Origin: a virus | Reading direction: 5' to 3' (one strand) | Virus record (IMG/VR): IMGVR_UViG_3300033149_002633 | Coordinates: 15,255-79,254 of that record | Length of the DNA stretch: 64,000 nucleotides | In this document: positions 22,672 to 57,779 of the stretch, piece after piece | How positions within the stretch are numbered: position 1 is the stretch's first letter | Layout: every line of letters begins with the position of its first letter | Made by a program: the position numbers and the translations under genes | Notes under the pieces: model-generated | What the model was told of the DNA's origin: nothing | The model's database searches: none | What the model saw: the letters and a program-made list of their open reading frames with translations, nothing else

Positions 22672-24297
22672 ATGGATGACGAGATGCTACGTAAGTTAGC
22701 ACAAGGGATGTTAAATGACCCAGTCCTTTTTGTTCAGAAAACCACTGGAAATATACCTTATTTTTATCAAGAAGAATTATTGAGATGTAATGATAGATTT
22801 ATAGCAGCTTGTTGGGCAAGACAGTTAGGCAAAAGCTGGATAGTAAGAATGAAGGCAATATATCAAGCTTTCACTTATCCAGACCAACTTATCATAATCA
22901 TTTCAGCTACTGAAAAACAAGCATTACATTTCTATCGTTTGTTAATGAAGGAAATACAAGACTCTGATTTATTACGTAATGAGATAGCTAGATATACTAA
23001 AACTATGGCTGTTTTAAAGAATGGTAGCCAAATTATTTGTCTTGCACCTTCAGAGAAATCAGTAAGAGGTTATTCTGCTGATTTAGTTATTATAGATGAA
23101 GCAGACTTTGTTGCCAGAGAAGTAATAGTAGCTGTAGAACAATGTATTACAGCAAGATATGGTAAAATGATACTTATTTCTACTCCTTCTCCAGAAGGTA
23201 TTGGTTCATTATTCTATCAATATTTTAATGATGGGTTAAGAGCTCAGAGAGAAGGATTGGTAGGAACTGATGAACATAAATTCAAGTATAGAGTTTTCCA
23301 TTATACTTATGAAGTTGGATTACAAGTAACAAGAGTTGAACGAGGTCAAAGACGTACCCAATTAGACCCGCATATGATTGCTATCAAACGCAAGACCATG
23401 GCTGAATGGGAATGGAAAAGAGAATATATGGCAGAATGGGCTGATAGTGTAGGTACTTACTACAATAGACTACACATAGAATCTTGTACGGATAAAAATT
23501 ATAGAATGATGGAAAATCAACTTGGGAAAGGAATGAAAGAATATATAGGAGAGTTTGAATATTATTCAGATTGTATCTATTTTGCTGGTGCGGACTTTGC
23601 TAAACAGATAGACAAAACAGTTTTAGCTATTTGTAGAACTATGTCAGATGGAGGTTATAAGATAGTTTATTTCTTTGAAGCTCAAGGAGTAGATTATACA
23701 ATACAAGGATATTATATTGTTAAAGCACTTGGCAGATATAAAGTTTCTATGGCTTGGGGAGATAAAAGCGGAGTAGGAGAGCCATTTATCGACTATATCA
23801 GTAGATTAGCTAGAGAAGACCCAGAATGTGATAACTTACAAAAAATTGAACCAGTAGCTCTTACAAATCTAAAGAAGCAAGAAATCTTTGGTAATACCAT
23901 TCCAATTGTAGCTCAACAACATATAGTGTTTCCTAACCATCCTCAATTCTTACAAGAAATGATTTATCTTAAAAGAGAACTAACTCCAGAAGGAATGTTA
24001 AAAATCAACGGTCCCACTGAAATGGATGATATTAATGATGACTATCCTATGGCTTTTGCACTAATGATGATGTGCGAACTTAAGAGTAACTATTCCAGAG
24101 ACTTTTTTGTTACTGCTACTCCACAATATGCAGAAATGATTAAAGACGATAGGAGAAGAGATGCTTTTGGAGAAACAACTTCATTATATGACAAAGACGA
24201 AATGTCCTTTTTCTATACTCCAGATGGATTAGATAGTACTATGGCTTTTTCCTTTAATAGAGGAATAAAAAGAACGAGAAGTAGAAGATTATTCTAA
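22672..24297 (+). CDS. terL: terminase large subunit
   Basis: YFYQ, ARQLGKS, IIDEA, ISTP, RNase H-like GADFAK..D, DDYPMA. Confidence 0.95.
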   Translation: MDDEMLRKLAQGMLNDPVLFVQKTTGNIPYFYQEELLRCNDRFIAACWARQLGKSWIVRMKAIYQAFTYPDQLIIIISATEKQALHFYRLLMKEIQDSDLLRNEIARYTKTMAVLKNGSQIICLAPSEKSVRGYSADLVIIDEADFVAREVIVAVEQCITARYGKMILISTPSPEGIGSLFYQYFNDGLRAQREGLVGTDEHKFKYRVFHYTYEVGLQVTRVERGQRRTQLDPHMIAIKRKTMAEWEWKREYMAEWADSVGTYYNRLHIESCTDKNYRMMENQLGKGMKEYIGEFEYYSDCIYFAGADFAKQIDKTVLAICRTMSDGGYKIVYFFEAQGVDYTIQGYYIVKALGRYKVSMAWGDKSGVGEPFIDYISRLAREDPECDNLQKIEPVALTNLKKQEIFGNTIPIVAQQHIVFPNHPQFLQEMIYLKRELTPEGMLKINGPTEMDDINDDYPMAFALMMMCELKSNYSRDFFVTATPQYAEMIKDDRRRDAFGETTSLYDKDEMSFFYTPDGLDSTMAFSFNRGIKRTRSRRLF

Positions 24298-26438
24298 ATC
24301 TTCTCATCGTAATAAATCACTATTCTTCCAATTTTACAATGTATATCATTTTTAGTCAATGTGCCAAGTGCTTGATTGTTTATATTTACAAATAGTTCTA
24401 ATAAGTAAATACATCCATCGTCTGCATCTGAATCAGCAACACTATTCCAATTTCCAGTAAGTTCGAATTCTCCCCATCCATTATTAGCAGATGTTATTGC
24501 AGCTATTTGCTCACCATTTATTATTGTATATTTGGTACCATAGTAAGGTTGCGTAGCATTAGCATACCATTGATAGAGATAAACTTTAATTTCTATAGAA
24601 CTTGTATCCCAATTTGCTGGTTCAATACAATAAGCATTTACTCCTATTTTTATTCCTTTAAACGTAGTTTTAGATGATTTAATATCGATTTTGAATGGGG
24701 TTCTAAAGTATGCTTGACCTATACCATTATCATCTTTATGGAAATCTGGTAAAATAATATCACCAGTTAAGTCTCCAAAAGCATCTTCTTCTGTCATTGA
24801 GAAATTACAATCATAAGTATCGGATATTTTAATCCAGAATGGATACTGAAAAATTGAAGCATTTATTGATGAGAAGCTTTGAGAACTTGCATCGTTAGGT
24901 GCATCTATACTACTGCTTATATAGTGCCAAGCTCCAAAACCACCAAGAGTGATAGATTTCGATGTTGTAGTTATTATTTCTCCATCAACATAAAGGTTTG
25001 TTGGTATTCTAACACCATTTAAACCACTTAATTCAAGCTCTGTATTAGCATTTATCTTTAAATCTCCATCTTCTCCAAATTCTATAATTGCACCAGAGAC
25101 ACTAATTTGTGATGAGTTTAGAACTATAGAGGTAGGACTTATAATGTTTATACCACTACCAGATAATGTCAAAGAACCAACAGTATTTTTGATGGAAGTA
25201 TTAAGCTGGTTCATCTCAATATTTCCAGAGAAGGTAGCTAAGCCAGATATAGTAATATCTCCGTTAATTGTTGCTCCACTATCTGCTGTTAGCCAATTTG
25301 TAGATATACCAGTGTCTCCATCAATAGTTACTGTTACATTACCAAGCGTATTAAAGGCACTTAATTGTCCAGCAGAAGAAATGTAAATGCTTGGATTTAA
25401 ACCATAAGGAACTGAAAGTGTCTGGAATAAACCATTTTCAAATTCTGCACTTGAACCACTTACTGTTGTACCAGCAGTAAATTCAACTATTCCTCCACTC
25501 ACATCATCTATTTCATTGACATAAATCTTTTTACCAGCAGTGATGGTCACATTATCATTAAGCGTAATTGGTGCTCCAGAAATTGTTATTGAAGTATCAA
25601 AGTCTATATAGCTTCCATTTTGAGCTGTTATTTTATTAGGGTCAAAAATCATAGAGTTTAATGAGAGAGATGTAGCGTTGTCTAAAATAATTGTATCAAC
25701 AGCTAATGAACCACTAACTATTAGGTTATTTTTTATGAGTGCATCATTATCTGCTGTAAAATTATATACGTCTATATTATTAGAACCTAAATCTACATTA
25801 TAATTAAATGTAATACCAGAAGTATTGAACTCAGCAATAACTTCTCCCTTATATGATTTTATACGAACACTATAACTGTTTTTTGCTATTATATCATTTA
25901 CTCTTGTTTCTGGATATCCAGTAGTATGAACATTTATAATACTACTAATATCTAAAGTTGTTTCTGCTCTGGTATAGGTAGCTAATAATATTTCATCATC
26001 TTCTATAGTATCAGTTATAGCTTTTTCTACTAATACAAAACTTTCGTTTTCTACTTCTCTTAAATTTCCATCTATTTGCCAATCATCAGCGGACTCAAGT
26101 ATTTTAGCTACAAGTAATCTATTACCACTTGTTACAGTTCCACTTAATTGTGTAGTAGTAAAGTCTTCTGATGACGCTTGTCTTAACCATCTACCATTAA
26201 TCATTAAGTTTCCAGCAGCTAAATGAATAGTAGAATCGGTATTAGTAATCTCACAACCATTTCTAATCCTTGATAATACACCAACATCCATCATATCTTC
26301 TATGATACGTTGGGTATTCTTGAAAACTGACTGGTCAGAGGTTAGAGCTGACCATTTGATATTCTCAATAACAATAGGTGATTGTTCTACTATATCACTT
26401 TCCGTTATATGTTCCTTAGATAATGTTTTATATGACAT
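24294..26438 (-). CDS. tail fibre or baseplate-attached fibre protein
   Basis: Follows baseplate J/I genes; beta-repeat, Ser/Gly/Thr-rich. Confidence 0.7.
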   Translation of the reverse strand: MSYKTLSKEHITESDIVEQSPIVIENIKWSALTSDQSVFKNTQRIIEDMMDVGVLSRIRNGCEITNTDSTIHLAAGNLMINGRWLRQASSEDFTTTQLSGTVTSGNRLLVAKILESADDWQIDGNLREVENESFVLVEKAITDTIEDDEILLATYTRAETTLDISSIINVHTTGYPETRVNDIIAKNSYSVRIKSYKGEVIAEFNTSGITFNYNVDLGSNNIDVYNFTADNDALIKNNLIVSGSLAVDTIILDNATSLSLNSMIFDPNKITAQNGSYIDFDTSITISGAPITLNDNVTITAGKKIYVNEIDDVSGGIVEFTAGTTVSGSSAEFENGLFQTLSVPYGLNPSIYISSAGQLSAFNTLGNVTVTIDGDTGISTNWLTADSGATINGDITISGLATFSGNIEMNQLNTSIKNTVGSLTLSGSGINIISPTSIVLNSSQISVSGAIIEFGEDGDLKINANTELELSGLNGVRIPTNLYVDGEIITTTSKSITLGGFGAWHYISSSIDAPNDASSQSFSSINASIFQYPFWIKISDTYDCNFSMTEEDAFGDLTGDIILPDFHKDDNGIGQAYFRTPFKIDIKSSKTTFKGIKIGVNAYCIEPANWDTSSIEIKVYLYQWYANATQPYYGTKYTIINGEQIAAITSANNGWGEFELTGNWNSVADSDADDGCIYLLELFVNINNQALGTLTKNDIHCKIGRIVIYYDEKI

Positions 26439-26450
26439 TTTTATTTACTC

Positions 26451-27152
26451 CTATATTACTATTGGCTGTAATGTTATTTTATATCTTATGCCTAAAGGTC
26501 TCACTTCATCTACTACTTGTTTAAGTAGGACTTTCTTTTCTTCTTGATTCCAATATTGATAATAATCCCTATTTTGAATAGAATTACTTGTTGTTCCACT
26601 AACCAATTTTATAATTATTTCAGCACCATAAATTTCTCCTTCTAAAGATGACCAATAACCTATTTCTAATCCATTATAGGTACTTCCCCAATATGAAGTA
26701 GAGCCACTACTTACATCATTCCAATAAGATATCAAACCACTCAATCTTGGTTCATTTATAATTATCCTATTAGTTTCTGACCACCCCTCATAACCAAAAG
26801 CTCCTTCTCCTATAAAATCATATATTACTCGTTTTATACTATTTTTATTTCCCCCTCCTTCAAATGATTTCCAATAAGTAGAAGCTCTAATAGCTAAACT
26901 TTCACTATCTTCCATAGGAAATTCATAAACTCCAAAATATTTAGATGCATCTGTTAAAACCCAATCACTGGCATTAACAACTAATTTTTCTTCATTTCTA
27001 ATATCTTGTCTTATATTTTCAGTATCTACAGCACAAGATATAGCCATCATAAATTTATAAATGACACTATCTTCATTACTGACAAAAGATTGTGGTAGAT
27101 AATTCCACACACCACTACTAACTATCTCACTAAAATCTTTACTCCATGCCAT
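26451..27152 (-). CDS. baseplate wedge protein (P2 gpI-like)
   Basis: Position after gpJ; GGNKNSIK and C-terminal DEVRPLG. Confidence 0.7.
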   Translation of the reverse strand: MAWSKDFSEIVSSGVWNYLPQSFVSNEDSVIYKFMMAISCAVDTENIRQDIRNEEKLVVNASDWVLTDASKYFGVYEFPMEDSESLAIRASTYWKSFEGGGNKNSIKRVIYDFIGEGAFGYEGWSETNRIIINEPRLSGLISYWNDVSSGSTSYWGSTYNGLEIGYWSSLEGEIYGAEIIIKLVSGTTSNSIQNRDYYQYWNQEEKKVLLKQVVDEVRPLGIRYKITLQPIVI

Positions 27153-29464
27153 TATCTCACCTTAGGTACTGCTGTACTGTCTATTCTAAATAATGATGCT
27201 ACTTCTGTTTTCCAGATTTGGTAATCTACAGAGGCATTATTTGTTCCACTAATAGGCATCATTACCATGAAACGCATAGGTCGAGGAGTTATTTCCCATG
27301 AACCACTTGTAGCAATATAAAACAATTCTCCAGAAATAGGTCTATCATACCATGCATTAGTTCCTAAAAATAGAGAACCACTTGCACTTACACCAGAGAC
27401 TACTACCCAATGTTTTTCATCTCTTTGTGTTACGGTTAAAACATCATCGAACTCTACAAAATAATCTTGTGCTATACTACTATCTAACGTTATCGTACCA
27501 GATGTTAAAAGGTCAGTGGGTCCAGAATTTGTTCCAGACCAAACAGAGACAGAAACTTGGTCTCCTATTGTCCCAGATAGATTTACTACTACTCCTACTA
27601 TTTTATCATATTCATAGTTCTCGTAAATGAATAGTAAATCTTCTCCATCTTGTAATGAAGCTTCATTACTACCAGATATACTATCAACTATAGTTATTGA
27701 AGTTGGAGTATGGCTGTCATAATAATTATTGACATATAATGGGTTGCGTATCCAGTTACCGTCATTATCTTGTAAAGCACGATAAACCAATGGAGTTGAA
27801 ACTGTAACCCCAGTTATATTTGACCCACTCATTACATAGGTATTAGAGCCAGATACATATTGATAAACATCTGAATATGATTTAGTTCCCATGTAAAATT
27901 GTTGAGCAAAACGAGTTCCACTTGCTGTTCCAGCTCCACTACCTAAATCTATCACATATTCTAATCCATATGGAGTAAATTCATAGGTTGAAATATAGAA
28001 TTTATTTATTTGTGTAGAATAGACTCCTATAACATTCATCGATACATCCATTAGCTTTGAATAAACTACATCTTCTCCTATTTTCAAATCAGCAATATAA
28101 TCATTTATCTTGTTCTCTACATTCAGTAAGATATTATTTCTATCATGCCAATATCCATCATCTGGCATAATAGACAAATCAAGATAAACATATTTAAACG
28201 TAGGATGATAAATTGTATGTCTTGTACCTACTGGTTTCTTTTCTTTTATTACTTCTTCAACTCTATTGATAGTATTGATATTAGTTATCTGTTTATTATC
28301 TCCGAGAATAAATACTTGGATATAGCTTTCAGCAATAAAAGGTTTGTTTTCTATATCATAGACTTTACATTCTGCTATACCTTCTATACTTTCTATTGCT
28401 CCTTCTATGGCACTATAAGTTGCTGAACCTTGTTTTAATGAAGCGTTCAAAATCCTTGAACGCAATTCTTCATCTGTTTCTCTATCCGAACCATTATTGA
28501 AATAATTCTGTTGTCCTAAATGGGTAGGAGGATTAAAAACTCTAACATTACTTTCTTCAGTTGTTAAAGAACTATCAGTCCATATTTTTGTTATGGTCAT
28601 TGGTGCAACATTTTGGGAAGCACCAGTTGTAGTAGCTCTAACTGTTATATATCCCGTTTTTCCAGCTTCTAATGTGATAAATGATGTTGGTTGAAAAATA
28701 GCGGACTTATCTACTGTAGAAAATCTATGAGAAGCTGATACTGTAAAACTTTCTGTCGAACTTTGATTTTCTATATACAAATATCCACTTGTATAGGTAG
28801 ACTCTCTTCTTACTACTCCCCATGGATATGCTAATTCATCTAATGCATCTCCATCAGCAGTTCTAACAAAACTATCTAAAAAGTTATCATAATTTTTAGC
28901 ATCAACATTCGCTAAGACCATTGAGATAGCTTCTATTATAGTAGTTAGAACTGTTCCATCACTAAAATTATTAGCATCACAAATCTTACTACTATCAAAA
29001 TACTTGTAATTAATTCTAAACAAAGTTCCGTCTTTCGGATGATAACCAGAAGTGGTATTCCATCTTATAGCATTATACATTGGCTGTCCATGATAGACTG
29101 AACCAGAAGATGAAACATTCATCCTTGACCCACTCCAATATAACCAGTAATTAACACTCGGGTCATCATCTGTTGGAGGATTATAATATTCACTATCTTG
29201 TAATATTTGTCCTCTTCCTTGTTTCCATGCATCTACACCCTTAAAAGAACCTTCTAAAGGAACCCAATTTCCATCTTCATTTATCCCTTCTACTGAAAGG
29301 ATTTCTACAATTGTTGGGTTAGTTGCAGAAGCTCCACTAAGAATATATATATCATTATCATCACTATAAACGTATTCCTCGCTCTCAATTAAAACTATAC
29401 CATCTCTTAACTGTTCTATGATTTGTTGTTTAATCTCTGAAGATGTTCTTGGATTATAAGACAT
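27152..29464 (-). CDS. baseplate J-like protein
   Basis: TADGDALDELA...GVVR, GSDRETDEELRSRI, KKPVG, LKIGEDV. Confidence 0.9.
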   Translation of the reverse strand: MSYNPRTSSEIKQQIIEQLRDGIVLIESEEYVYSDDNDIYILSGASATNPTIVEILSVEGINEDGNWVPLEGSFKGVDAWKQGRGQILQDSEYYNPPTDDDPSVNYWLYWSGSRMNVSSSGSVYHGQPMYNAIRWNTTSGYHPKDGTLFRINYKYFDSSKICDANNFSDGTVLTTIIEAISMVLANVDAKNYDNFLDSFVRTADGDALDELAYPWGVVRRESTYTSGYLYIENQSSTESFTVSASHRFSTVDKSAIFQPTSFITLEAGKTGYITVRATTTGASQNVAPMTITKIWTDSSLTTEESNVRVFNPPTHLGQQNYFNNGSDRETDEELRSRILNASLKQGSATYSAIEGAIESIEGIAECKVYDIENKPFIAESYIQVFILGDNKQITNINTINRVEEVIKEKKPVGTRHTIYHPTFKYVYLDLSIMPDDGYWHDRNNILLNVENKINDYIADLKIGEDVVYSKLMDVSMNVIGVYSTQINKFYISTYEFTPYGLEYVIDLGSGAGTASGTRFAQQFYMGTKSYSDVYQYVSGSNTYVMSGSNITGVTVSTPLVYRALQDNDGNWIRNPLYVNNYYDSHTPTSITIVDSISGSNEASLQDGEDLLFIYENYEYDKIVGVVVNLSGTIGDQVSVSVWSGTNSGPTDLLTSGTITLDSSIAQDYFVEFDDVLTVTQRDEKHWVVVSGVSASGSLFLGTNAWYDRPISGELFYIATSGSWEITPRPMRFMVMMPISGTNNASVDYQIWKTEVASLFRIDSTAVPKVR

Positions 29465-31096: not shown

Positions 31097-31756
31097 CTAT
31101 GCATAATAACACTGTAATAACGGAGGACTATATTCTAAGTATCCAGCAGTAGCAACTATTGATACTATCTTTATTGTAACCATATGATATATGGAAACAT
31201 CAATAGCAGTAAATGTTTCTGTTTTTAAACCAATAGTATTGTATTCAGCACTTGTATATATCAATGGAATTCCAGTATCTGTCATACCATAAATATAAAC
31301 TCTACAATAATTTGAAGTATCAGCATCAGAAACTGACAATTTTAATCCACTTATGTATAATTTAAGAGCACCTTTTGCAGTAGGTAAAGGTAAAACCCAA
31401 TAAGTCGAATAATCTGTTCCCCCTTCATTACCTACACGACCATTCGTAGCTTTGAAATATAAAGCTCCAGTACTTTCCATATAATATGGACAAGGTACCC
31501 AAGCTGCGTTAGCTGACCCAAACATGACAAAATCAGAAAGTTTCTTAGTTGAACCTCCATTATAAAACTCAAAATCATTATTAGCAGTAACAGTTTTATT
31601 AAAATAAAACTTAGGTATATCAGTATTAGTATTAAAATGACACCAATTAGCATTTTGTGGTCCTATATCTACATAACCATTAGTTGTTTTTACTCTGGTT
31701 ACACCAGTAGTTTGTATCCTTAAATAACCACTTGAACCACTATGAATTAAGAACAA
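31097..31756 (-). CDS. tail-fibre distal/receptor-binding domain, probably the frameshifted 3' part of 31747..35412
   Basis: Has only a TTG start, and its frame is open upstream to ~31804; GYVDIGPQNANWCHFNT echoes IRIGAGNTTYAHLTT in the upstream fibre. Confidence 0.65.
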   Translation of the reverse strand: MFLIHSGSSGYLRIQTTGVTRVKTTNGYVDIGPQNANWCHFNTNTDIPKFYFNKTVTANNDFEFYNGGSTKKLSDFVMFGSANAAWVPCPYYMESTGALYFKATNGRVGNEGGTDYSTYWVLPLPTAKGALKLYISGLKLSVSDADTSNYCRVYIYGMTDTGIPLIYTSAEYNTIGLKTETFTAIDVSIYHMVTIKIVSIVATAGYLEYSPPLLQCYYA

Positions 31757-34700
31757 TGCACCACTATTATCATCACTTTTAGTACTAATATTCCAATAAC
31801 CAACTCATCTCTATAAATATTTACTTTATCATTTGAAGCTCTTAAAATAACATCTTCTCCACTTGCACCAGCAGTACCATCATTAGCTCTTAACTCTACA
31901 TAACCATTAGCAGTACGGTTACATAAAGCAACTACTTTGTTAGTAGAATCAAAGAATAAACCATATCTTGTATCAGTATCTCCAGTCGGTTTATAGGTTA
32001 TACCATATTGAGCACTTTCCATAAAAAAGTCTATACCCGTTTTATCAATATCTATTAATTTTGTATTATCACTATCCCCGTCATATAAAGTTAAATAATG
32101 ACGACTATTTTTAGCAGATATCTCTAAAGCTTTTTTAATATACGATGTACCATAATTTTCTAAATAAACTTCTAATCCAAACCCGTTGCCTCCATCTTCT
32201 GCATCTTGAGCTCGTGTTCTTAACCAAGACAAAACGGTATAATTAGTTGAATTATACCAAGCATTTCCTTTCAAAGTTAATCTTGGACTATATGCATCAG
32301 CATCAGTAGTTGTATTTACAAGAACGAAACCATCTGTAGCAATAGTTTTTTTAATAACTATTGCATCAGATTCTTCCATCATTATACTATCAGTTAAAAC
32401 ACCAGTACTTTCCCATTTAGGGATATAACCAGTGGTTACATTAGTACCTTGTGAAATATCTCCAGTTCCAGCATCTCCATTTATCCAATTTCCAGTTCCA
32501 CTATCATATACAAGCACTTGACCATCAGAAAGGGATGATATATTTACATCACTTAAATCGTCTAAAGCGTGGGTATGACTTATAGAAGCATATTTAGAAC
32601 TTAAAGAAGCTCCTCCTTCATAGATAGTTCCAGAAACTGATAAATCTTCGATTATATCAACACTATTATCAAATAAAGCATCTCCACCTACTTCTAATCC
32701 ATAACCAGTAGATACACTAGTACTACCTCGATTTATACTTGTTATTCCAGTTAGCCATTGTCTATCATCATAAATATAAGCACCAACACTCCCATCATTT
32801 CCTTTTATCATTAAACCATCAGTCAATGGAGCAATGATTCCACCATTAGTTGGAGGAGAGCCTATTGTTATAGTATTAGTATTAATAATATCATTAGAAT
32901 AAATTGTAGCCCATCTTTTATTACTTGAACCTAAACCAGCTATATTATCAGAATATGGTGTTATATTTCCATTTACTGCTACATTATTTCCAAACCAAAA
33001 ACCACTATTTGCATCTGTTGTTAAATGAGCATATGTTGTATTACCAGCTCCTATTCTAATAGTTTTACCAGATGTAGCATTATAAATACCTAAAGAAGCT
33101 CCATAACCACTATCATCTGGTTGTAAAGTAATATCTAATGCGTCACTTAATAATATACTTTTACTAATTAATTTATTCCATCTGTTTGATGTTGTTCCTA
33201 AATCAGCTCCTCCATCAGTATAAGGTCTAAATAATTTATTAACATACATAGCATAGGGAGTTATAACTAAAAAATTATCCCATGAAAAAGTATTACCAGC
33301 TGTTCCACTTACTGCTACTTTTAAGTAAATTTCTCCATTACAACCTTCAAAATTTTGCTCGATAGCAGTTGCACCATTATTAGTTGTCTCATAAATATAA
33401 CCACTGTTATAATAACAACCTCCTCTAAAATTCCAATTTCCACCCCCATCATTACAAGTAATCTTTTTTATTCCCTTACCAGAATCTCCAGTATTATCCA
33501 TAGAAAGATAGGCAGAACCATGTGTTAGTTTCAAATGTTGTGCAGAAATAGTTAATGTGTTAGAAAAGTTCCAACTACCACTTATTGTTTCATCTTGACC
33601 TAAATGAGCGTATTGTGGGTGGTCATCATCATTCAAACCTAATAAATTACCATGGTCAATAGAAGATTCAGTAAAGTGAATGCTACTGTCAGATATATGA
33701 TTGTCTATATCTGTATGAGAATTAACTCCTATATTTTTTAAATCATTATGGTCTATACCAACAGTTGAGCCACTGAAAGATACTGAACCACTAAAAACTG
33801 TTGAACCACTAAATGTCCAATCTCCAGTAATAGTTTCATTCTCACTTAAAGCTGCAAAATAACTACTATCATATCCGTCTAAAGTATCGGCGTTTAATCC
33901 TACCTCATCTACTGCAATAGTTAAAGTGTTAGCTACATCATCATAAGTTAATGAGATGTTACTACCAGCTACTAACAGATTACTTACTCTATCATCAACC
34001 CGTTCATCAGTATAATATAGATTTGTTGTTCCTTCTACTATATTGTCTGTTGTCTTTCCAGAGAGCCATGTATCAGCTCTTCCGTCAGTATGGTATTGGG
34101 GATGGTCGTCATCTGTTAAACCAGCTAAATCTCCATGGTCAATTATGTTAGGCTTAGTATATTCTATTGAGAATGTTGTTCTAACGTCTATCCATGCATC
34201 GCTTGGGAAAGGAGGAAGTTCAGTATCTCCTTCTTGTGTTATAAGAGCTATTGATTTAGGTAAAATACTTAATCCATCTGGTATATTAGGTAAAGCACCA
34301 TTTACAGCATCAGCAAAGTTGTTGAAATATTCTTGTGGATAAATCCAATGAATTTCAGTTGGAGAAACAATAAACAAGCTTTTAACATATTTATTAACTG
34401 GTAAAGCAGCTAAACCAGTTCCAGTATCATAATTAACAGTGTCTATTGTAGAACTTGTATCAGAAACCCAGTTACCAGAAGCGTCATGATACCATCTTCT
34501 TATCAGTGTTACTGTACTATCTATTGATGGTACAGTAACTTTAACATTCATATTTTCATAATATTCTCCACCATCTGTTTTAACTGCTAAAGCTGTAACA
34601 CCTTGTGGCTCTACTATTAAACCTTTCTTAACAAATTCTGGGAATAAATCTTTAAGAGCTTTAAACCCATCATTAAACGCAAATGATACACTATTCTCTT

Positions 34701-41326: not shown

Positions 41327-41341
41327 CTTAAACCCTTAAAT

Positions 41342-41892: not shown

Positions 41893-41915
41893 TTAAACCA
41901 TTTGAAGCTTTCAAT

Positions 41916-42410: not shown

Positions 42411-42447
42411 TATAAAAAAGAGAATAAAAATTAAAAAGTTTTCTTAA

Positions 42448-46926: not shown

Positions 46927-48243
46927 TTACATCACCAAATGAACTTTAGTATTTATTTTATCAAATATAGGTTTCCACATTTTTTCTACTACTTCCCAAT
47001 CATAGTGTTTAACTGCCCATTCTCTCGCTTTTTCTCCATGTATCTTAGCTAATTCTGGAGCCATGTAGTATTTTTCCATTGCTTTAGCAAATTCTTTTAC
47101 ATCTACCCATGCTTTCTTAACTCCACACATTTCCATATATAGTCTGCTTGGTGGGACTAATGTACCTCTTAGGTCTTCTGGTTTGACATATTTCCCATTA
47201 TCACCAATAGCCATGAATTCAGTAGAAGTAGTGTAATCAGTTAGAATGTTAGGAAGACCACAAGCCATAGCTTCAACAATAGGTATTCCAAATCCTTCTC
47301 CACCAGTAGGTAATACATGAACATCGAAAGCATTGTACAATAAAGACATATCAGCTTCTGGGATACCATTTATATAACTATATGTCTTGTTTTGAGGATT
47401 GAATTGTGGAGTTATAATTACATTGTTAGCAATACCTCTAACTTCTATTTGTTCAAGGAAGAAATAATCATGATTAGGGTCTCCAATATATAGAGCATCT
47501 TTAGGGTCAAGATGTAGATATAAGTAACAATTCTTTCTTCTCTCTTCATCTTTCTCAAGGAAAATCCTAAATGCCTCAAGCAACCTCATATGGTGTTTTC
47601 GTTTGTTTAATCTTGCTACACAACCAAAGATAAAAGCTTCATCTGGGTCAATAGGTAATCTTATTCCTAACTTTGCAAAAATTTCTCTTCTTGCAACTTT
47701 CTTGTTTATTGGAGAAAAGAGTTTTGTATCTACACCATGAGGAACATATTCAACACTAATACCTAATTGTTTTCTTGTTAATGCTTGCCCAAAACGTGAC
47801 ATCGCAACTCTTACATCAGCTCTTTTTATGACACTGGCAATTTGTGTATTAATTGGGTCTCCATCTAATGGGTAATAACAAATCCAGAATGGTCGAGGTT
47901 TCATAGCCAATACATCAACCATATGTGCGTCTCCTTGTGTAAATATAGCATCTGGTGATATTTTCTTAAAGAAATTATCATAACTATCTTTTCCAAAAGC
48001 TGCTCTACCTTCTACTCCATGTATCTTAAAGTCAAATCCTTTAATCTCTGGATTACCTCTGGTTTGCCAACCAAGATAATGAACATCCCATCCCCATTTA
48101 ACAGCAAAACTAGCTATCTTACTGCATTGTACAGCAAATCCAGTCGGATAGTAAGGACTGTCACTTGCAAATCCTATAACTGGTTTTTTTATAACCTTCA
48201 TTTGTTCTTTTATCTTTACTTCTGGTTTATTATGTCTTGACAT
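46927..48243 (-). CDS. glycosyltransferase, GT-B (GT4-like)
   Basis: TGFA, VPHGVD, RK, GEGFGIPIVEAMACG; promoter-like TCAAAAGTTTTAAATAA at ~48265-48281. Confidence 0.93.
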   Translation of the reverse strand: MSRHNKPEVKIKEQMKVIKKPVIGFASDSPYYPTGFAVQCSKIASFAVKWGWDVHYLGWQTRGNPEIKGFDFKIHGVEGRAAFGKDSYDNFFKKISPDAIFTQGDAHMVDVLAMKPRPFWICYYPLDGDPINTQIASVIKRADVRVAMSRFGQALTRKQLGISVEYVPHGVDTKLFSPINKKVARREIFAKLGIRLPIDPDEAFIFGCVARLNKRKHHMRLLEAFRIFLEKDEERRKNCYLYLHLDPKDALYIGDPNHDYFFLEQIEVRGIANNVIITPQFNPQNKTYSYINGIPEADMSLLYNAFDVHVLPTGGEGFGIPIVEAMACGLPNILTDYTTSTEFMAIGDNGKYVKPEDLRGTLVPPSRLYMEMCGVKKAWVDVKEFAKAMEKYYMAPELAKIHGEKAREWAVKHYDWEVVEKMWKPIFDKINTKVHLVM

Positions 48244-48811: not shown

Positions 48812-49663
48812 TCACCCATCTAAAATATTCAAACCAGTAAGCCAACCTTCGTAAATCTTACCATCACCTACAACATATACTTTTCCACTATCGCTAAATA
48901 TAGCTGCATTATATACTGTAGCTTTTTCTACATTAGCTGGAAAAGCTCTATGTTGGTAAGGAGCAGAAATAGAACGTCTATTTATAATTACTACTGGAGC
49001 TCCATCGTATGCAAGTTTCAAGTTATTCTTTAAGACTTTAATTTTATCCTCATAAAGTCTGAACAACTCTCCCATAGACATACCTTCTCCCCATAACTTA
49101 GTCTGTACATCCAAATCTCCTAATTTGTAACTAAATCCACCTTGTATAGCATTAGAACTGTTTAATGATAAGATACAATACTTTACAGCTATAGCATACA
49201 TGGTTAGAATAGCTAATTGATGAACAGTATCAGTAGTATTAACATCGAAAGTCCAATTCATATCAAACTCATGGTTTATCTCTTGTTTTGCACTTTCTAC
49301 TTCCATATTTATTTGACTATCAGTTAAACCAGCTTGAAAACGATAAGTTACATAAACTTCATCTCCAGCAGATATATCTACAGATGCTCCAGACATTAAA
49401 ATTATTTTCCCACTATTCTCTTCAATATATGACCCACTTGCAGTATTATAATAATTGACTCCAGAATGAGTAGGAGATGTCCATATACCAGCACAATCAG
49501 CTAATGGAGGATTAAAAATATGAACATATAATCCATCTGAACCAGAATAAACAATCTGTGCTTCATCCTTTACTGTAATATGCTGGACTATACCAGCTTG
49601 TGTTAGCATATTTCTTACATTTGTTATGTGAGCAGTATTAGCTGTTACACTTAAGAAACTCAT
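48812..49663 (-). CDS. head-tail adaptor protein
   Basis: Follows the MCP; LTDSQI..., SYKLGDLDV. Confidence 0.65.
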   Translation of the reverse strand: MSFLSVTANTAHITNVRNMLTQAGIVQHITVKDEAQIVYSGSDGLYVHIFNPPLADCAGIWTSPTHSGVNYYNTASGSYIEENSGKIILMSGASVDISAGDEVYVTYRFQAGLTDSQINMEVESAKQEINHEFDMNWTFDVNTTDTVHQLAILTMYAIAVKYCILSLNSSNAIQGGFSYKLGDLDVQTKLWGEGMSMGELFRLYEDKIKVLKNNLKLAYDGAPVVIINRRSISAPYQHRAFPANVEKATVYNAAIFSDSGKVYVVGDGKIYEGWLTGLNILDG

Positions 49664-49736: not shown

Positions 49737-50762
49737 CTAACCAGTATAGTTGGATGGGTCTACTGGAACAATGTTGTCGATACGACAAGCTGCATCGGGA
49801 TTGACTACACCTACACCTACTCTTGAAGTCATATAAATGACCATACTATCATGAGAGATGATAGATTTCTGGTCAACCGATAATGGTCGTCTAACGAAAC
49901 GGATAGCATACCTTTCAGTATTCAAGAACAAAGCCTTATCATTGTCCATCCATGGTGTCGAAATAATGTTAAGACCAGCAATAGGATACATCTGACTTGT
50001 TCTAAATGTTCTCTGTTGGTCGGGAGGGAGGAATTGCCAAACATTGTTAGACATAAATTGTTCCATCTGAAGTAGTTGTACTAGTACAAATGGATGAATG
50101 ACTAAAGTGTTGTAAGGAACACCTTCAGCAGTACCTATGGCTAATGCCATTTGTATCTTTTCCCAGTCAAGCTTACCCGCAGTACCAGACCATTGAGCGT
50201 CTTGAGCATCAAGTACATGATTAGGTACATTTTGTCCAGTCTTAAATTCACTGGATTCGTCAGAAACACCATTTATCAAAGCTTGCATAATCATCTTATT
50301 CTCAAATCTTGCACAAGCATCCATACCCATACTAATTTGTCTTTGAACTAAATCAAAGCTTTGAACATCTTCAATGGCTTCATTAGTAATAGATACACCG
50401 ATACCGAATTTCTGCACTCGTACAGTAACTTTACCGTACTTTGACTTAGCAATTGGTATCTCAACACCTTCTCCCAAAGGCACCGCATCAAATCCTTGTT
50501 CAAAAGGATATGAGATGACTGGAGAATTAACGTTGATTGTATCCACGAGATTCATAGCAACTAAGTCTGGAATATATTCAGTGAAGAATTCACGATTGAA
50601 AGCTTCAGTTATGTAAAGTAGAACATCTTCTCTACTCATATATTGAGTAAGTTCGAATAGGTTTCTTGGTGATTTAACCATTTTACCTTTATAAGGGATA
50701 AATCCATGCATACCCCATTGTCTAGCTCTTTGTTGTTGTATTGTTATTGTCATTTTTACCAA
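49737..50762 (-). CDS. major capsid protein (HK97 fold)
   Basis: GEGVEIP, KFGIGVSITNEAIED, LVIHP, GLNIISTP, RVGVGVVNP; ATG at 50753 is an alternative start. Confidence 0.92.
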   Translation of the reverse strand: MVKMTITIQQQRARQWGMHGFIPYKGKMVKSPRNLFELTQYMSREDVLLYITEAFNREFFTEYIPDLVAMNLVDTINVNSPVISYPFEQGFDAVPLGEGVEIPIAKSKYGKVTVRVQKFGIGVSITNEAIEDVQSFDLVQRQISMGMDACARFENKMIMQALINGVSDESSEFKTGQNVPNHVLDAQDAQWSGTAGKLDWEKIQMALAIGTAEGVPYNTLVIHPFVLVQLLQMEQFMSNNVWQFLPPDQQRTFRTSQMYPIAGLNIISTPWMDNDKALFLNTERYAIRFVRRPLSVDQKSIISHDSMVIYMTSRVGVGVVNPDAACRIDNIVPVDPSNYTG

Positions 50763-51364
50763 CCTCTCTTATATGTTGGGTCAACAAGACATTTCGGTGT
50801 GGGACCACTACCAGTCCAGACTTGAGGACCTTCAGACCCGCTTGAGACTTGTATAATCTTTCCAATGATTATATAACCATCGGGGTTTGTACTCTGTGAC
50901 AAAGCTTCTACATAACCGTCTGAACCAGAACTTGGAATAGCCCAGTCTCCTACATTAGGTGTAGCTCCACTATATGGCATCCAAATCATTTCATCATTGA
51001 CATAGCCAAAGATATAGAGATTCTCGAATACATCAGTATTCTGGAACCAGTTGTCTATTTCCACTGGGTTACCAGTTTGCATAAAGTTCAGAGGTGCATC
51101 AGTTGTAGCAATACCAAGAATGTTATAATTAGCTCCACTTGCCATTACTCCACTTACAGCTACATCAGCAGCTGATAGAACTTTAGCTCTTGGATAAATT
51201 TGAACTGTACCATCACTGTACCATTGTGTGCTATTGTCTTGTCCCGCAGCTTTTACCAGAATAGAACCACAAATCCATGATGCCCCACTAGCTAGTTGGC
51301 ACATCTTAACGTTCTTGGGAGCATAATGGAGACCACTACGATAATCTTTTTTAAACTTAGGCAT
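50756..51364 (-). CDS. capsid decoration/cement protein
   Basis: Between protease and MCP; ILGIA..., IIGKI beta-tulip-like pattern. Confidence 0.65.
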   Translation of the reverse strand: MPKFKKDYRSGLHYAPKNVKMCQLASGASWICGSILVKAAGQDNSTQWYSDGTVQIYPRAKVLSAADVAVSGVMASGANYNILGIATTDAPLNFMQTGNPVEIDNWFQNTDVFENLYIFGYVNDEMIWMPYSGATPNVGDWAIPSSGSDGYVEALSQSTNPDGYIIIGKIIQVSSGSEGPQVWTGSGPTPKCLVDPTYKRGW

Positions 51365-54238: not shown

Positions 54239-54280
54239 GATAGTTAAGAATGTTAAAACAAAATAATTAGGAGGATAAAA

Positions 54281-56156: not shown

Positions 56157-56277
56157 GTGATTATATGACTGATAATAATACATTCCTTTTTGTAATACTT
56201 TTCTCTTTTTTAATCTTCTTTTTAACCTTAAATGAGGTTAAACATTACATTAAACAACTTGAGAACCATGAAGAAGA

Positions 56278-57177
56278 CTAAACTTGGTATTCTAATAATA
56301 ATTGAAGTATTTTTCTCCACTCATCAAATGAGACGTAACAATAAAACATTAATCCACTAAGCGTATAGTTGTAAAGTATTGATTTATGATATTCATCCCA
56401 TTCATCGAACGTTACAGCATTAGATTTGTTATATGATGTATCAAACTTCTTTTCTATGGCACTAACGTCAAATTGTTGGTCAATACCTAACATTTTATTT
56501 ACAAAATACTTCATCCCAATAGGAGTAAATAAGTTTTCAAACCTAACTAAATAAGATATACCACCTTTATCTCTTATATCTATCAGACTTTGATAAGTTA
56601 TATGATTGAGAATGTTCCAATACCACGATGCATGTGCAATCATAACCTCTTCGTTATTATCTATTTTAATACCATGTTTATCAATTCTTTCTATGGTTTC
56701 ATATAATTGGTCATATCCATTCCATGTATATTTTACAGCTTCTACAAACTTATTTTGTCTTATTCTAAAATGATGGGGTTTAATTATACCAATAAAATTT
56801 TCTCTTTTAAACCACCCACCCTTATTTCTAACTGATGCTACTACATCTCTTGCATCTCTAACAATATGAATAAAAATAGCATCTGGGAAAGCCTCATATA
56901 CACAATCGAGTAGAGGTGTTAATGCCCAATTACATTCAACAAATGTTCCACTGCCTTGGAATATCTTAGACCTCGTCTCTTTTATAGTATCAATTACTTC
57001 TTCTCTACTTATTCGGTTATTATAATATTCATCTACAACTTTTCTGAGCCTTGGATTAGGTTCATGAAAAGCTTTTACACCATCAAATTTATCTAAAAAT
57101 CTGGATAAAAATCCAGTTCCCGTTCTTCCAGTGCTTACAATAAATATTTTTCTTTGTTCCTTTTCCAATCTCATCAC
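56278..57177 (-). CDS. PAPS-dependent sulfotransferase
   Basis: 5'-PSB loop STGRTGT, HEP, 3'-PB HIVRDARDVVAS, VRFENL. Confidence 0.88.
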   Translation of the reverse strand: MMRLEKEQRKIFIVSTGRTGTGFLSRFLDKFDGVKAFHEPNPRLRKVVDEYYNNRISREEVIDTIKETRSKIFQGSGTFVECNWALTPLLDCVYEAFPDAIFIHIVRDARDVVASVRNKGGWFKRENFIGIIKPHHFRIRQNKFVEAVKYTWNGYDQLYETIERIDKHGIKIDNNEEVMIAHASWYWNILNHITYQSLIDIRDKGGISYLVRFENLFTPIGMKYFVNKMLGIDQQFDVSAIEKKFDTSYNKSNAVTFDEWDEYHKSILYNYTLSGLMFYCYVSFDEWRKILQLLLEYQV

Positions 57178-57779
57178 TTATAATTAATGTCTAATCCCTT
57201 TTTTACTCTTGCCCTACTTGGCATTATAACTGGATTTGATATATATCTCGTGGGGTATTTCTTTGTAACAAATTTTATAATATCTACCATGTTGGTTATT
57301 AATCCTTCCCAATTTTCTCTATCTACTCTATACGCATAATGTGGAATAGTTACTGGATGATGTCCCCAATCATTATGAAAATTTACATGTTCAATTGTTG
57401 GAAATGTGATTATATAGTATTCTGAAGACTCTACGATTAAAGTGTATAATATCTTCTGTTTTTCTGGTTTTAGATGTTCTAATATTTCTGATGCCCATAT
57501 ATAATGATACGGTTTTTCTATTGAACGATTAATTATTTTATTTGACAGAAACTCCATCATATCTTCTGATATATATCTACATCTTCCTTCTTTCCAGCTC
57601 CTCTCAAATCTATTATCAATAAAATCTATCAATTTCGGATTTCTACTTAGTAACAATGATTTGTATGGAACCGTTATTCCACATCCTATATCACATATTT
57701 TTCTTTTTTCTTCAAAAAATTTTATTAATTCAACTTTTTGTGATTGAACACCTTCACAATTCATATCATTGTTATTCAT
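57174..57779 (-). CDS. class I SAM-dependent methyltransferase
   Basis: ICDIGCG, ASEILEHL, ITFP. Confidence 0.8.
   Translation of the reverse strand: MNNNDMNCEGVQSQKVELIKFFEEKRKICDIGCGITVPYKSLLLSRNPKLIDFIDNRFERSWKEGRCRYISEDMMEFLSNKIINRSIEKPYHYIWASEILEHLKPEKQKILYTLIVESSEYYIITFPTIEHVNFHNDWGHHPVTIPHYAYRVDRENWEGLITNMVDIIKFVTKKYPTRYISNPVIMPSRARVKKGLDINYK

What the first reader, a model, noticed from the sequence alone, without database searches (positions are those of the whole stretch)
24294..57779. Ser-Gly sequons on external virion proteins plus viral glycosyltransferases and a sulfotransferase: possible proteoglycan-like sulfated virion coat
Seen (manual counts of SG dipeptides): decoration protein 8/202 aa, tail terminator 7/240, baseplate J ~19/770, sheath 8/436, adaptor 6/283, fibre 24294 ~13/714, long fibre ~20+/1221. 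These are often hydrophobic/small-S-G-S/T/A. Controls are low: MCP 1/341, tape measure 1/488, TerL 1/541, PolB 1/902. Two GT4-like genes sit inside the morphogenesis block, and a sulfotransferase-methyltransferase pair lies at 56278-57779. Known: Ser-Gly is the O-glycan attachment sequon of eukaryotic proteoglycans, and virion glycosylation is documented in some phages. Inference: a virus-encoded pathway O-glycosylates, sulfates and methylates Ser-Gly sites over the outer virion surface, which would be notable if the host is Asgard.
Basis: partly seen in the sequence, partly recalled or inferred. Interest (0 to 1): 0.8.

Follow-up and report, generated by a model that had tools for sequence, protein, structure and literature searches.

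The report
Ser-Gly motif on outer virion proteins
An uncultured tailed virus carries a short Ser-Gly-Ser/Thr/Ala motif five to seven times too often on its outward-facing particle proteins and keeps two sugar-adding enzymes among its particle-assembly genes, so it probably sugar-coats its particles, but no tool here can show that the motif is the attachment site.

Summary
Every Ser-Gly count was reproduced. SG is the most over-represented of all 400 dipeptides in the virion proteins (118 observed, 56 expected, z 9.5). The real signal is an order-specific tripeptide, S-G-[S/T/A]. It is 5-7x enriched (z 11-19) in three related genomes. It sits in the same eight proteins: fibres, baseplate J and its neighbour, sheath, and the genes placed as terminator, adaptor and decoration. 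It is absent from the portal, protease, GT4 enzymes and presumed tube and tape measure, from non-structural proteins, and from T4, P2, D6E and phiPsal1 virion proteins.

The GT4 pair is real, lies in the head-tail module of every relative found, and is better conserved than the sheath. One relative carries an intein in it. The sulfotransferase is real but accessory: a sister genome places it beside methyltransferases and a sugar epimerase between capsid and adaptor genes, while another lacks it yet keeps the motif.

The proteoglycan analogy fails: no acidic context, no SGxG excess, no GT14-type enzyme seen in the window or the sister genome's island. A DNA-level cause was tested and is minor.

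Best reading (~0.4): cytoplasmic O-glycosylation of virion proteins, with S-G-[S/T/A] as candidate acceptor. A purely structural turn motif (~0.3) is not excluded. The host is unknown.

The parts
46927..48243 (-). GT4-1, a retaining GT-B glycosyltransferase with an intact E-x7-E motif
   Evidence: Pfam PF00534 at 64.9 bits and phrog_2170. E-x7-E is invariant in 6 orthologs. AF2 model pLDDT 94; best PDB match is chlorovirus GT4 3oy2, followed by generic GT4 enzymes. It is 44-61% identical in all relatives, more than the sheath.
45762..46925 (-). GT4-2, a paralog of GT4-1 (27% identity) whose motif reads E-x7-Q/N
   Evidence: Pfam PF00534 at 50.1 bits. Alignment and paralogy. Top PDB sequence hit is the chlorovirus GT 3oy2. 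The ortholog in L004/G002 carries an intein directly after this motif.
56278..57177 (-). PAPS-type sulfotransferase (accessory)
   Evidence: Pfam PF13469 at 41.6 bits and PF17784. TGRTGTGFL and RDARDVVAS resemble the 5'-PSB and 3'-PB PAPS-binding motifs, by eye. A homolog in G001 lies inside the head module. None in G002. No APS kinase in any of the three genomes.
57174..57779 (-). Probable divergent class I SAM methyltransferase (weak evidence)
   Evidence: No Pfam, PHROG or PDB sequence hit. A DIGCG stretch aligns with motif I of the L003 methyltransferase at E 0.03. Atlas nearest clusters are class I SAM methyltransferases (score 0.97, TM 0.6-0.67).
50756..51364 (-). Protein between protease and MCP genes ('decoration', named by position): 8 SG, 5 S-G-[STA]
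   Evidence: Four SG are invariant in 10 homologs. In a weak AF2 model (pLDDT 56), SGs 26, 132, 146 and 175 lie just after beta strands and the other four (10, 71, 76, 186) in loops, at a helix end or in the unmodelled N-terminus.
48812..49663 (-). 'Adaptor' (named by position): 6 SG, 3 S-G-[STA]
   Evidence: SG sites are largely conserved in 3 relatives.
44399..45121 (-). 'Tail terminator' (named by position): 7 SG, 5 S-G-[STA], including a C-terminal SG-rich tail
   Evidence: The SG-bearing insertion and the C-terminal tails are specific to this clade and vary between relatives.
43050..44360 (-). Tail sheath: 8 SG, 6 S-G-[STA]
   Evidence: PF17482 and sheath PHROGs. Of the five SG sites that align across remote homologs, two align with DG, NG or TG and none with PG.
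27152..29464 (-). Baseplate J-like wedge protein: 19 SG, 14 S-G-[STA], all but one outside the conserved J domain
   Evidence: PF04865 covers residues 205-472. Site list. Counts of 14, 18 and 12 in the three genomes.
26451..27152 (-). Small baseplate protein after J: 4 SG, 2 S-G-[STA]
24294..26438 (-). Fibre: 14 SG, 7 S-G-[STA]
31747..35412 (-). Long fibre or spike: 23 SG, 11 S-G-[STA], including an F-S-G-S-x-V hexad repeat at residues 535-547
   Evidence: Weak endosialidase tail-spike domain hit.
39860..43038 (-). Internal controls within the same operon: presumed tape measure, two small proteins and tube, with 0 S-G-[STA]
   Evidence: Names are by position only; no family hits.
49737..50762 (-). 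Major capsid protein: 1 SG
   Evidence: Major head protein PHROGs. Counts.

Best explanation
The virus encodes a late, cytoplasmic protein-glycosylation module whose core is a pair of GT4 glycosyltransferases sitting between the head-completion and tail genes. The module most likely adds short O-linked glycans to folded virion proteins before or during assembly. The best candidate acceptor is the Ser of an S-G-[S/T/A] turn, often preceded by a hydrophobic residue. This motif has accumulated independently on eight unrelated, outward-facing virion proteins. GT4-1 (E-x7-E intact) would start or carry out the transfer from a host nucleotide sugar. GT4-2 (E-x7-Q/N) would extend the glycan or act as a partner subunit. 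The sulfotransferase and methyltransferase(s) are optional tailoring enzymes present in some members, using host PAPS and SAM.

Shown here: the motif statistics and their distribution, the enzyme families, and the synteny. Inferred: that virion proteins are the substrate, that the motif is the acceptor, and the roles of the two GT4s.
For: 1. Motif strength. S-G-[ST] is 44 vs 9.0 (z 11.6), 73 vs 10.8 (z 19.4) and 53 vs 8.9 (z 15.6) in the virion proteins of three genomes. It is order- and residue-specific: TGS, TGT and AGS are not enriched, and SGT:TGS is 15:1, 39:5 and 28:4. It is robust to local shuffling.
2. Distribution. The same eight outward-facing proteins carry the motif in all three genomes. 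Portal, protease, presumed tube and tape measure, the GTs and the non-structural proteins have almost none.
3. Independent origin. The motif-bearing proteins share no detectable sequence similarity, so the motif arose independently in each. This points to a common trans-acting cause.
4. Turnover. Only 36-42% of SG sites are positionally conserved between genomes, yet totals stay at 95-132. Ser in SG is more conserved than other Ser (0.45-0.48 vs 0.28-0.34). Clade-specific insertions and C-terminal tails are SG-rich.
5. Controls. T4 (4 vs 7.8), P2, D6E and phiPsal1 virion proteins lack the motif excess.
6. The GT4 pair lies at the same place in every relative found, including a distant clade with sheath ~30% identical, where GT4-1 is 44-46% identical. 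An intein sits in GT4-2 of one relative.
7. Sister genome G001 has an epimerase/dehydratase, a GT2-like gene and methyltransferase-sulfotransferase-methyltransferase between the MCP and adaptor genes.
8. Precedent. GT genes beside capsid genes, and capsid-attached glycans, are reported for mycobacteriophages Che8 and Rita (PMC11256854). Pontimonas phage phiPsal1 has MCP-GT4-MTase-GT2-neck. Archaeal virus GT loci are read the same way (PMC13700489).
Against: - No direct evidence of any glycan.
- The GT4-1 model resembles generic GT4 enzymes with small-molecule, lipid or sugar acceptors as well as a viral GT4. It shows no specific likeness to known protein O-glycosyltransferases.
- The distant clade keeps the GT4 pair but has only a 3x S-G-[ST] excess, and there SG equals GS. 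Motif density is therefore not tied tightly to GT presence.
- Many SG sites are invariant, with conserved neighbours. In a weak model four of the eight SG sites in one protein follow beta strands directly, and one run is a hexad repeat. A structural turn motif would look the same.
- phiPsal1, which has a similar GT cassette, shows no such motif.
- Surface exposure could not be computed because no model coordinates are returned.
Confidence: 0.4

Rival explanations
1. S-G-[S/T/A] is a lineage-specific structural device: a strand-end turn or fibre repeat in beta-rich surface proteins that is never modified. The GT4 pair glycosylates other sites or does something else.
For: - Four of eight SG in the decoration protein are invariant with conserved flanks.
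- In the weak AF2 model four of its eight SG sites follow beta strands directly.
- The long fibre has an F-S-G-S-x-V hexad repeat.
- In remote sheath homologs two of the sites hold DG, NG or TG, which are classic turn dipeptides.
- P2 virion proteins over-use a different small-residue-Gly dipeptide, TG (49 vs 29.5, z 4.0). HGTV-1 shows a mild SG excess.
Against: - The motif recurs in eight proteins with no mutual similarity, and at a strength (z 11-19) not seen in five control virion proteomes.
- Thr is not tolerated at position 1.
- More than half of the sites turn over while the density is kept.
- SG-rich flexible C-terminal tails are not turns.
Confidence: 0.3
2. The GT4 pair, sulfotransferase and methyltransferase act on something other than virion proteins. 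Candidates are host envelope glycans or lipids (receptor masking, superinfection exclusion) or a free saccharide. On this reading the motif is unrelated to them.
For: - The structural neighbours of GT4-1 mostly use lipid, sugar or small-molecule acceptors.
- PHROGs files these GTs under 'moron, auxiliary metabolic gene and host takeover'.
- In the window, the sulfotransferase operon lies outside the structural block, in its own unit.
Against: - The GT4 pair keeps a fixed position between head-completion and tail genes across deep divergence, and is more conserved than the sheath. That is unusual for a moron.
- G001 moves the tailoring genes into the head module.
- GT4-2 of one relative carries an intein.
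Confidence: 0.15
3. One reading: a proteoglycan-like coat, with Ser-Gly acting as a eukaryote-type glycosaminoglycan attachment sequon and sulfated chains over the whole virion.
For: A sulfotransferase with PAPS-type motifs is present. In G001 it lies in the head module next to methyltransferases and an epimerase.
Against: - Acidic residues are depleted at positions -2 to +1 around SG (0.03-0.08 against a background of 0.13). SGxG, [DE]xSG and SG[DE] are at expectation.
- Only GT4 enzymes (plus a weak GT2-like gene in G001) were found among the proteins scanned, and no GT14-type or polymerising enzyme among them.
- G002 has the motif but no sulfotransferase.
Confidence: 0.07
4. The SG excess is a by-product of DNA-level constraints. 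The genome bans CAGG/CCTG, CCGG and GATC, which makes Pro-Gly impossible to encode and restricts Thr-Gly and Ala-Gly codons, so Ser takes their place before Gly.
For: - CAGG 0 vs 218 expected, GATC 0 vs 233, GGCC 0, CCGG 1.
- PG is 0 against 20 expected. TCA-GGN is never used.
- The SG > GS asymmetry is seen in the three CAGG-free genomes but not in the distant clade that has CAGG.
Against: - Non-structural proteins of the same genomes obey the same bans (PG 0 against 21-30 expected) but show no SG excess.
- In the distant clade without the ban, PG is already rare (5 vs 19.9), so few PG were there to convert.
- More than half of the SG Ser codons are AGT, which cannot come from CCN by one change.
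- None of the sheath SG sites that align across remote homologs aligns with PG there; two align with DG, NG or TG.
- The tripeptide and order specificity have no DNA-level explanation.
Confidence: 0.05

Closest known systems
Virion glycosylation of mycobacteriophages (Che8, Rita; Freeman et al. 2023, as cited in PMC11256854)
   Same: A tailed virus encodes its own glycosyltransferases, and glycans are attached to virion proteins made in the cytoplasm. The cultured actinophage phiPsal1 has MCP-GT4-methyltransferase-GT2-neck. This is the same kind of cassette in the same kind of place as here and in G001.
   Different: Here there is a paralogous GT4 pair conserved across a deep, uncultured clade. 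A sulfotransferase is present in some members. A sharply defined candidate motif is spread over at least eight tail, baseplate and head-surface proteins. phiPsal1 virion proteins show no S-G-[ST] excess. The primary paper was not held, so its acceptor sites were not compared.
Glycosyltransferase loci of archaeal viruses (rudivirus and Adnaviria GT next to the MCP gene; Asgard virus GuangzhiV1 locus with three GTs, GDP-mannose dehydratase and a SAM methyltransferase; PMC13700489)
   Same: GT plus sugar-modifying plus methyltransferase genes, read as modification of virion or host proteins. A rudivirus GT is a weak tblastn hit of GT4-1.
   Different: No sequon has been proposed there, and no sulfotransferase is mentioned in that paper (0 occurrences). 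The archaeal host of the present virus is not established.
GtfA/GtfB-type two-component O-GlcNAc transferases of serine-rich repeat adhesins (known from the literature; Gtf1 structure 4pqg)
   Same: Two adjacent GT4-type paralogs, one with a degenerate catalytic motif, acting in the cytoplasm on Ser of a folded or unfolded protein substrate. Gtf1 is a weak sequence hit of GT4-1 (E 3.7e-4).
   Different: There is no specific structural likeness: 4pqg is not among the top Foldseek matches. The substrates here are not serine-rich repeats. Heterodimer formation was not tested.
Eukaryotic proteoglycan Ser-Gly attachment sites (known from the literature)
   Same: A Ser-Gly dipeptide, with possible sulfation of the glycan.
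   Different: The context is opposite: hydrophobic before and S/T/A after, acidic residues depleted, no SGxG. The enzyme families also differ.
Chlorovirus-encoded GT4 (B736L-type, PDB 3oy2)
   Same: Best structural match of GT4-1 and best sequence match of GT4-2 among solved structures. It is a virus-encoded GT4.
   Different: Identity is 15%. It comes from a eukaryotic giant virus, and its acceptor is not defined by the entry title ('putative glycosyltransferase').

Membership tests
CAZy GT4-type (Pfam Glycos_transf_1) retaining GT-B glycosyltransferase | Pfam PF00534 above the gathering score | tested here: met
   64.9 and 50.1 bits against a cut-off of 26.4. Both also match phrog_2170.
CAZy GT4-type (Pfam Glycos_transf_1) retaining GT-B glycosyltransferase | GT-B two-Rossmann fold | tested here: met
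   GT4-1 model pLDDT 94. Top 50 PDB matches include many characterised GT4 enzymes and other GT-B relatives such as trehalose-6-phosphate and glycogen synthases, TM 0.6-0.77. GT4-2 was not modelled.
CAZy GT4-type (Pfam Glycos_transf_1) retaining GT-B glycosyltransferase | E-x7-E motif in the C-terminal domain | tested here: met
   GT4-1: E-x7-E is invariant in 6 orthologs. GT4-2: the second Glu is Q or N in all 6 orthologs, so the motif is not met for GT4-2.
PAPS-dependent sulfotransferase | Pfam sulfotransferase domain above the cut-off | tested here: met
   PF13469 at 41.6 bits against 27; PF17784 at 25.2 against 22.8.
PAPS-dependent sulfotransferase | 5'-phosphosulfate and 3'-phosphate binding motifs | tested here: inconclusive
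   TGRTGTGFL near the N-terminus and RDARDVVAS were read by eye in the translation and compared with motifs recalled from the literature. No structural check was made.
Class I SAM methyltransferase (57174-57779) | Family profile match | tested here: not met
   No Pfam, PHROG or PDB sequence hit. Support is limited to Atlas look-alikes and a DIGCG stretch.
Eukaryote-type glycosaminoglycan attachment sequon | Acidic residues flanking Ser-Gly, and SGxG | tested here: not met
   Acidic fraction is 0.03-0.08 at positions -2 to +1 against a background of 0.13. SG.G is 9 vs 4.4 (z 2.1), 9 vs 4.9 and 6 vs 4.0. [DE].SG, [DE]SG and SG[DE] are at expectation.
Eukaryote-type glycosaminoglycan attachment sequon | Initiating xylosyltransferase (GT14) and chain polymerases | tested here: not met
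   Only GT4 (and a weak GT2-like gene in G001) were found among the proteins scanned. These were most ORFs from window position 24294 on, the larger ORFs of the first 15 kb of the genome, and the G001 island. The replication-side ORFs were not all scanned.
Phage-encoded virion glycosylation (actinophage type) | GT genes inside or next to the structural gene block | tested here: met
   The GT4 pair lies between adaptor and terminator genes in G000, G001, G002, L005, L012 and L013; in L015 the contig begins at the pair, directly upstream of the terminator and sheath genes.
Phage-encoded virion glycosylation (actinophage type) | Glycan covalently attached to capsid or tail proteins | not testable with these tools
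   Needs mass spectrometry or glycan staining of virions or co-expressed proteins.
GtfA/GtfB two-subunit protein O-glycosyltransferase | Adjacent GT4 paralogs, one of them catalytically degenerate | tested here: inconclusive
   The two are adjacent paralogs (27% identity). GT4-2 has E-x7-Q/N but keeps the R/K phosphate-binding residues.
GtfA/GtfB two-subunit protein O-glycosyltransferase | Specific similarity to GtfA/Gtf1 | tested here: not met
   4pqg is only a weak sequence hit (E 3.7e-4) and is absent from the top Foldseek ranks.

The most novel reading that the evidence does not exclude
S-G-[S/T/A] is the acceptor sequon of a virus-encoded cytoplasmic protein O-glycosylation system, formed by a GT4 pair and kept as a hallmark of the morphogenesis module of a deep, uncultured myovirus lineage. 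The system coats every outward-facing virion protein. In some members the glycan is further sulfated and methylated. This would be the first defined O-glycosylation sequon of a prokaryotic virus and the first sulfated phage glycan.
Probability: 0.15. Interest if true: 0.85.

Novelty: new variant of a known kind. Interest (0 to 1): 0.6.

Why it matters
Virion glycosylation by phage-encoded enzymes has so far been reported mainly for a few actinophages, where it shields particles from antibodies. If this lineage does the same, three things follow.
- The trait extends to a deep, uncultured virus group, possibly archaeal.
- It offers a concrete, testable acceptor motif. This would allow glycosylated virion surfaces to be predicted from sequence alone.
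- It adds sulfation and methylation to the known chemistry of virus particles.

The test needs no culture. Co-expressing two GT4 genes with one 202-residue substrate protein and measuring its mass would decide it.

Tried and rejected
1. Pro-Gly to Ser-Gly replacement driven by the CAGG/CCGG ban. I raised this after finding PG = 0. I rejected it as the main cause for four reasons. Non-structural proteins show no SG excess under the same ban. PG is already rare in the ban-free distant clade. AGT encodes most SG serines. No sheath SG site that aligns across remote homologs aligns with PG there, and two align with DG, NG or TG.

2. Local S/G-rich composition. Rejected by shuffling within 8- to 40-residue windows and by permutation counts.

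3. A shared homologous domain carrying the motif. Rejected: all-against-all BLAST of the structural proteins finds only the GT4 paralogs.

4. The 'relatives without GTs' test. Every relative whose DNA could be fetched has the GT4 pair.

5. Surface exposure. The decoration-protein model is poor (pLDDT 56) and no coordinates are returned, so only secondary structure could be read.

6. Host. No provirus was found in genome contigs with the sheath profile. Histidine-kinase relatives are scattered over bacteria and archaea at 24-35% identity. TerL has only remote hits of 22-27%.

7. Acceptor type from the GT4-1 fold. The matches are generic GT4 enzymes.

8. The primary paper on mycobacteriophage glycosylation was not held.

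Full report
WHAT THE WINDOW IS

The window is bases 15255-79254 of a 79,254-bp IMG/VR virus record with direct terminal repeats. GC content is about 31%. It encodes a myovirus-type morphogenesis block on the minus strand. The following assignments are confirmed by family searches:
- portal, major capsid protein, TerL and family-B DNA polymerase, by PHROGs;
- a protease-like protein;
- tail sheath and a baseplate J-like protein.

The names 'decoration', 'adaptor', 'terminator', 'tube' and 'tape measure' rest on gene order only. None has a family hit.

CHECK OF THE OBSERVATION

Shuffling each protein gives p <= 0.005 for six of the seven named proteins and p = 0.014 for the sheath.

Pooled over 22 structural proteins, SG is 118 against 55.7 expected (z 9.5). 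That is the strongest of all 400 dipeptides. GS is 73 against 55. The excess survives shuffling within windows of 8 to 40 residues, so it is not a matter of S/G-rich patches. The 71 other ORFs of the genome show nothing (41 vs 34).

THE MOTIF IS A TRIPEPTIDE

The residue after SG is Ser or Thr in 38-56% of cases, against a background of 15-17%. Charged residues are depleted around it.

S-G-[S/T] counts in the virion proteins of this genome and two whole related genomes (G001, G002):
- G000: 44 against 9.0 (z 11.6);
- G001: 73 against 10.8 (z 19.4);
- G002: 53 against 8.9 (z 15.6).

T-G-S, T-G-T, A-G-S and A-G-T sit at or below expectation. Among permutations of the same three residues, SGT:TGS is 15:1, 39:5 and 28:4. 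SGS exceeds SSG and GSS.

The motif is concentrated in the same eight proteins in all three genomes. S-G-[STA] counts are:

| Protein | G000 | G001 | G002 |
|---|---|---|---|
| fibre | 7 | 10 | 9 |
| small baseplate protein | 2 | 2 | 5 |
| baseplate J | 14 | 18 | 12 |
| long fibre | 11 | 21 | 9 |
| sheath | 6 | 6 | 6 |
| terminator | 5 | 7 | 7 |
| adaptor | 3 | 5 | 5 |
| decoration | 5 | 6 | 6 |

It is absent, or occurs once, in portal, protease, tube, tape measure, the small tail proteins, the MCP and both GTs. These eight proteins share no detectable similarity with one another. In baseplate J, all but one SG lie outside the conserved J domain.

Control virion proteomes lack the S-G-[ST] excess:
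- T4: 4 against 7.8;
- P2: 2 against 3.1;
- D6E: 4 against 2.3;
- phiPsal1: 1 against 1.9;
- haloarchaeal HGTV-1: a mild 18 against 9.0.

A DNA-LEVEL CAUSE, RAISED AND MOSTLY DISMISSED

The dipeptide table also showed Pro-Gly at 0 against 20 expected. The reason lies in the DNA. The whole genome has no CAGG/CCTG at all (218 expected). It also has no GATC (233 expected) and no GGCC, and only one or two each of CCGG, CGCG and GCGC. G001 and G002 likewise have zero CAGG and zero GATC. All four Pro codons followed by GG create a banned word. So does any NCA codon before Gly. Accordingly, TCA never encodes the Ser of SG.

I tested whether SG is what Pro-Gly (or Thr-Gly, Ala-Gly) became under this ban. 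It is at most a minor part, for five reasons.
- Non-structural proteins obey the same ban (PG 0 against 21-30) without any SG excess.
- A distant clade without the ban (L013: CAGG 157 against 65 expected) already has few PG (5 against 19.9).
- AGT, which cannot arise from CCN in one step, encodes 64 of the 118 SG serines.
- Among the sheath SG sites that align across remote homologs, two align with DG, NG or TG and none with PG.
- No DNA constraint explains the third position or the order specificity.

One correlation remains. SG > GS holds in the three CAGG-free genomes but not in the distant clade (61 vs 59). I cannot fully explain this.

THE ENZYMES

The two genes at 46927-48243 and 45762-46925 are GT4-type glycosyltransferases and are paralogs at 27% identity. 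GT4-1 keeps E-x7-E. GT4-2 reads E-x7-Q/N in every ortholog.

A model of GT4-1 is confident (pLDDT 94). Its best solved match is a chlorovirus GT4 (3oy2), followed by generic GT4 enzymes. This says nothing about the acceptor.

The pair lies between the head-completion and tail genes in every relative whose DNA could be fetched. This includes a clade whose sheath is only about 30% identical; there GT4-1 is 44-46% identical, more than the sheath or the terminator. In G002/L004, GT4-2 is interrupted directly after its nucleotide-sugar motif by an intein. The intein has an N-terminal Cys, a C-terminal His-Asn and a +1 Cys. GT4-1 has 351 homologs at E <= 1e-20, against ten for the sheath in the same kind of search. 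Some are fused to methyltransferase domains. Its Atlas look-alikes are almost all viral.

The gene at 56278-57177 is a sulfotransferase, with stretches that read like the two PAPS-binding motifs. No APS kinase is encoded, so PAPS would have to come from the host. The neighbouring 57174-57779 is only weakly supported as a class I SAM methyltransferase.

SYNTENY THAT BEARS ON THE INTERPRETATION

In sister genome G001, the following genes lie between the MCP and adaptor genes, a few genes from the GT4 pair:
- a methyltransferase, a sulfotransferase homolog and a second methyltransferase;
- a GT2-like gene (below threshold);
- an NAD-dependent sugar epimerase/dehydratase.

This links the tailoring enzymes to virion assembly. 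G002, however, has no sulfotransferase in 80 kb and still shows the full motif excess. Sulfation is therefore optional.

HOW THE SITES EVOLVE

Between G000 and G001 or G002 (41% and 35% overall identity in aligned virion proteins), only 42% and 36% of SG pairs keep their position. Totals stay at 118, 132 and 95. Ser within SG is more conserved than other Ser (0.48 and 0.45 against 0.34 and 0.28).

Some sites are invariant with conserved flanks. Others sit in clade-specific insertions and variable C-terminal tails of the terminator. The only structure attempted for a substrate protein was poor (pLDDT 56). It places four of the eight SGs (26, 132, 146, 175) directly after beta strands, and the others in loops, at a helix end or in the unmodelled N-terminus.

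INTERPRETATION

The context is hydrophobic-S-G-S/T/A with acidic residues depleted. SGxG and acidic flanks are not enriched. The enzymes are of the wrong families.

The broader idea, that the virus glycosylates its own particle, fits three things:
- the fixed place and strong conservation of the GT4 pair;
- the G001 island;
- known precedent in actinophages (PMC11256854; phiPsal1 cassette) and the usual reading of archaeal virus GT loci (PMC13700489).

One short, order-specific motif has accumulated independently on eight unrelated outward-facing proteins and nowhere else. That is what an acceptor sequon for a shared enzyme would look like. It is also what a favoured surface turn could look like. 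I put the sequon reading at about 0.4 and the purely structural reading at about 0.3.

NOT DONE

- Relatives without the GT pair were not found.
- Exposure could not be computed.
- The host is unknown.

Noticed in passing
whole window and genome G000; also G001 (L016-L020) and G002 (L021-L024): The non-palindromic tetramer CAGG/CCTG is completely absent on both strands: 0 against 218, 289 and 264 expected in three related genomes. CTGG/CCAG is 2.0-2.4x over-represented. A distant relative, L013, has CAGG at 157 against 65. I know of no 4-bp restriction site CAGG, and a review of archaeal R-M systems does not mention it. One consequence is that Pro-Gly cannot be encoded anywhere in these genomes.
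   Followed up: partly
whole genome G000: Broad palindrome avoidance: GATC 0/233, GGCC 0/51, CCGG 1/51, CGCG 1/51, GCGC 2/51, CTAG 42/233, GANTC 51/233, GCNNGC 5/51. The set differs between relatives: G001 has CTAG 5, G002 has CTAG 131 and GGCC 18. It also explains the depletion of the Arg-Ser dipeptide (AGA-TCN contains GATC; 8 vs 27).
   Followed up: partly
L004:6162-8174 (same gene as G002:C1:6874-8886): The GT4-2 ortholog is 670 aa because of an intein of about 283 aa. It is inserted right after the E-x7-Q motif, starts with Cys, and ends with His-Asn followed by a +1 Cys. I know of no other intein reported in a glycosyltransferase; I did not search the literature for one.
   Followed up: partly
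G001:C1:61230-67604 (L019:1230-7604): A glycan-tailoring island lies between the MCP and adaptor genes: methyltransferase, sulfotransferase, methyltransferase, two unknown plus-strand ORFs, a GT2-like ORF (below threshold) and an NAD-dependent epimerase/dehydratase at E 1e-38.
   Followed up: partly
homologs of window 46927-48243 (P0137, P0144, P0156): Some relatives of GT4-1 are fused to SAM or FkbM methyltransferase domains (629-668 aa). This suggests that methylated sugars are common products in this viral GT4 family.
   Followed up: no
structural proteins, window 24294-54172: The dipeptide His-Pro is the second most over-represented: 14 against 3.8, z 5.3. No explanation was sought.
   Followed up: no
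window 54735-55592 (+): An N6/N4 DNA methyltransferase (PF01555, E 1e-27) in a genome that otherwise relies on site avoidance. Its target site is unknown.
   Followed up: no
window 15997-16854 (-), 57904-59400 (+), 60444-61436 (-): A response-regulator receiver protein (PF00072, E 3e-20) and a resolvase-type serine recombinase (PF00239). A histidine-kinase-like protein has nearest cellular relatives scattered over bacteria and archaea at 24-35% identity, which gives no clue to the host.
   Followed up: partly
L008 (phage P2), L028 (HGTV-1): Other virion proteomes have their own favoured small-residue-Gly dipeptide. P2 has TG at 49 against 29.5 (z 4.0). HGTV-1 has SG at 89 against 59.8 (z 4.0). 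Lineage-specific X-Gly preferences in tail proteins may be general.
   Followed up: no
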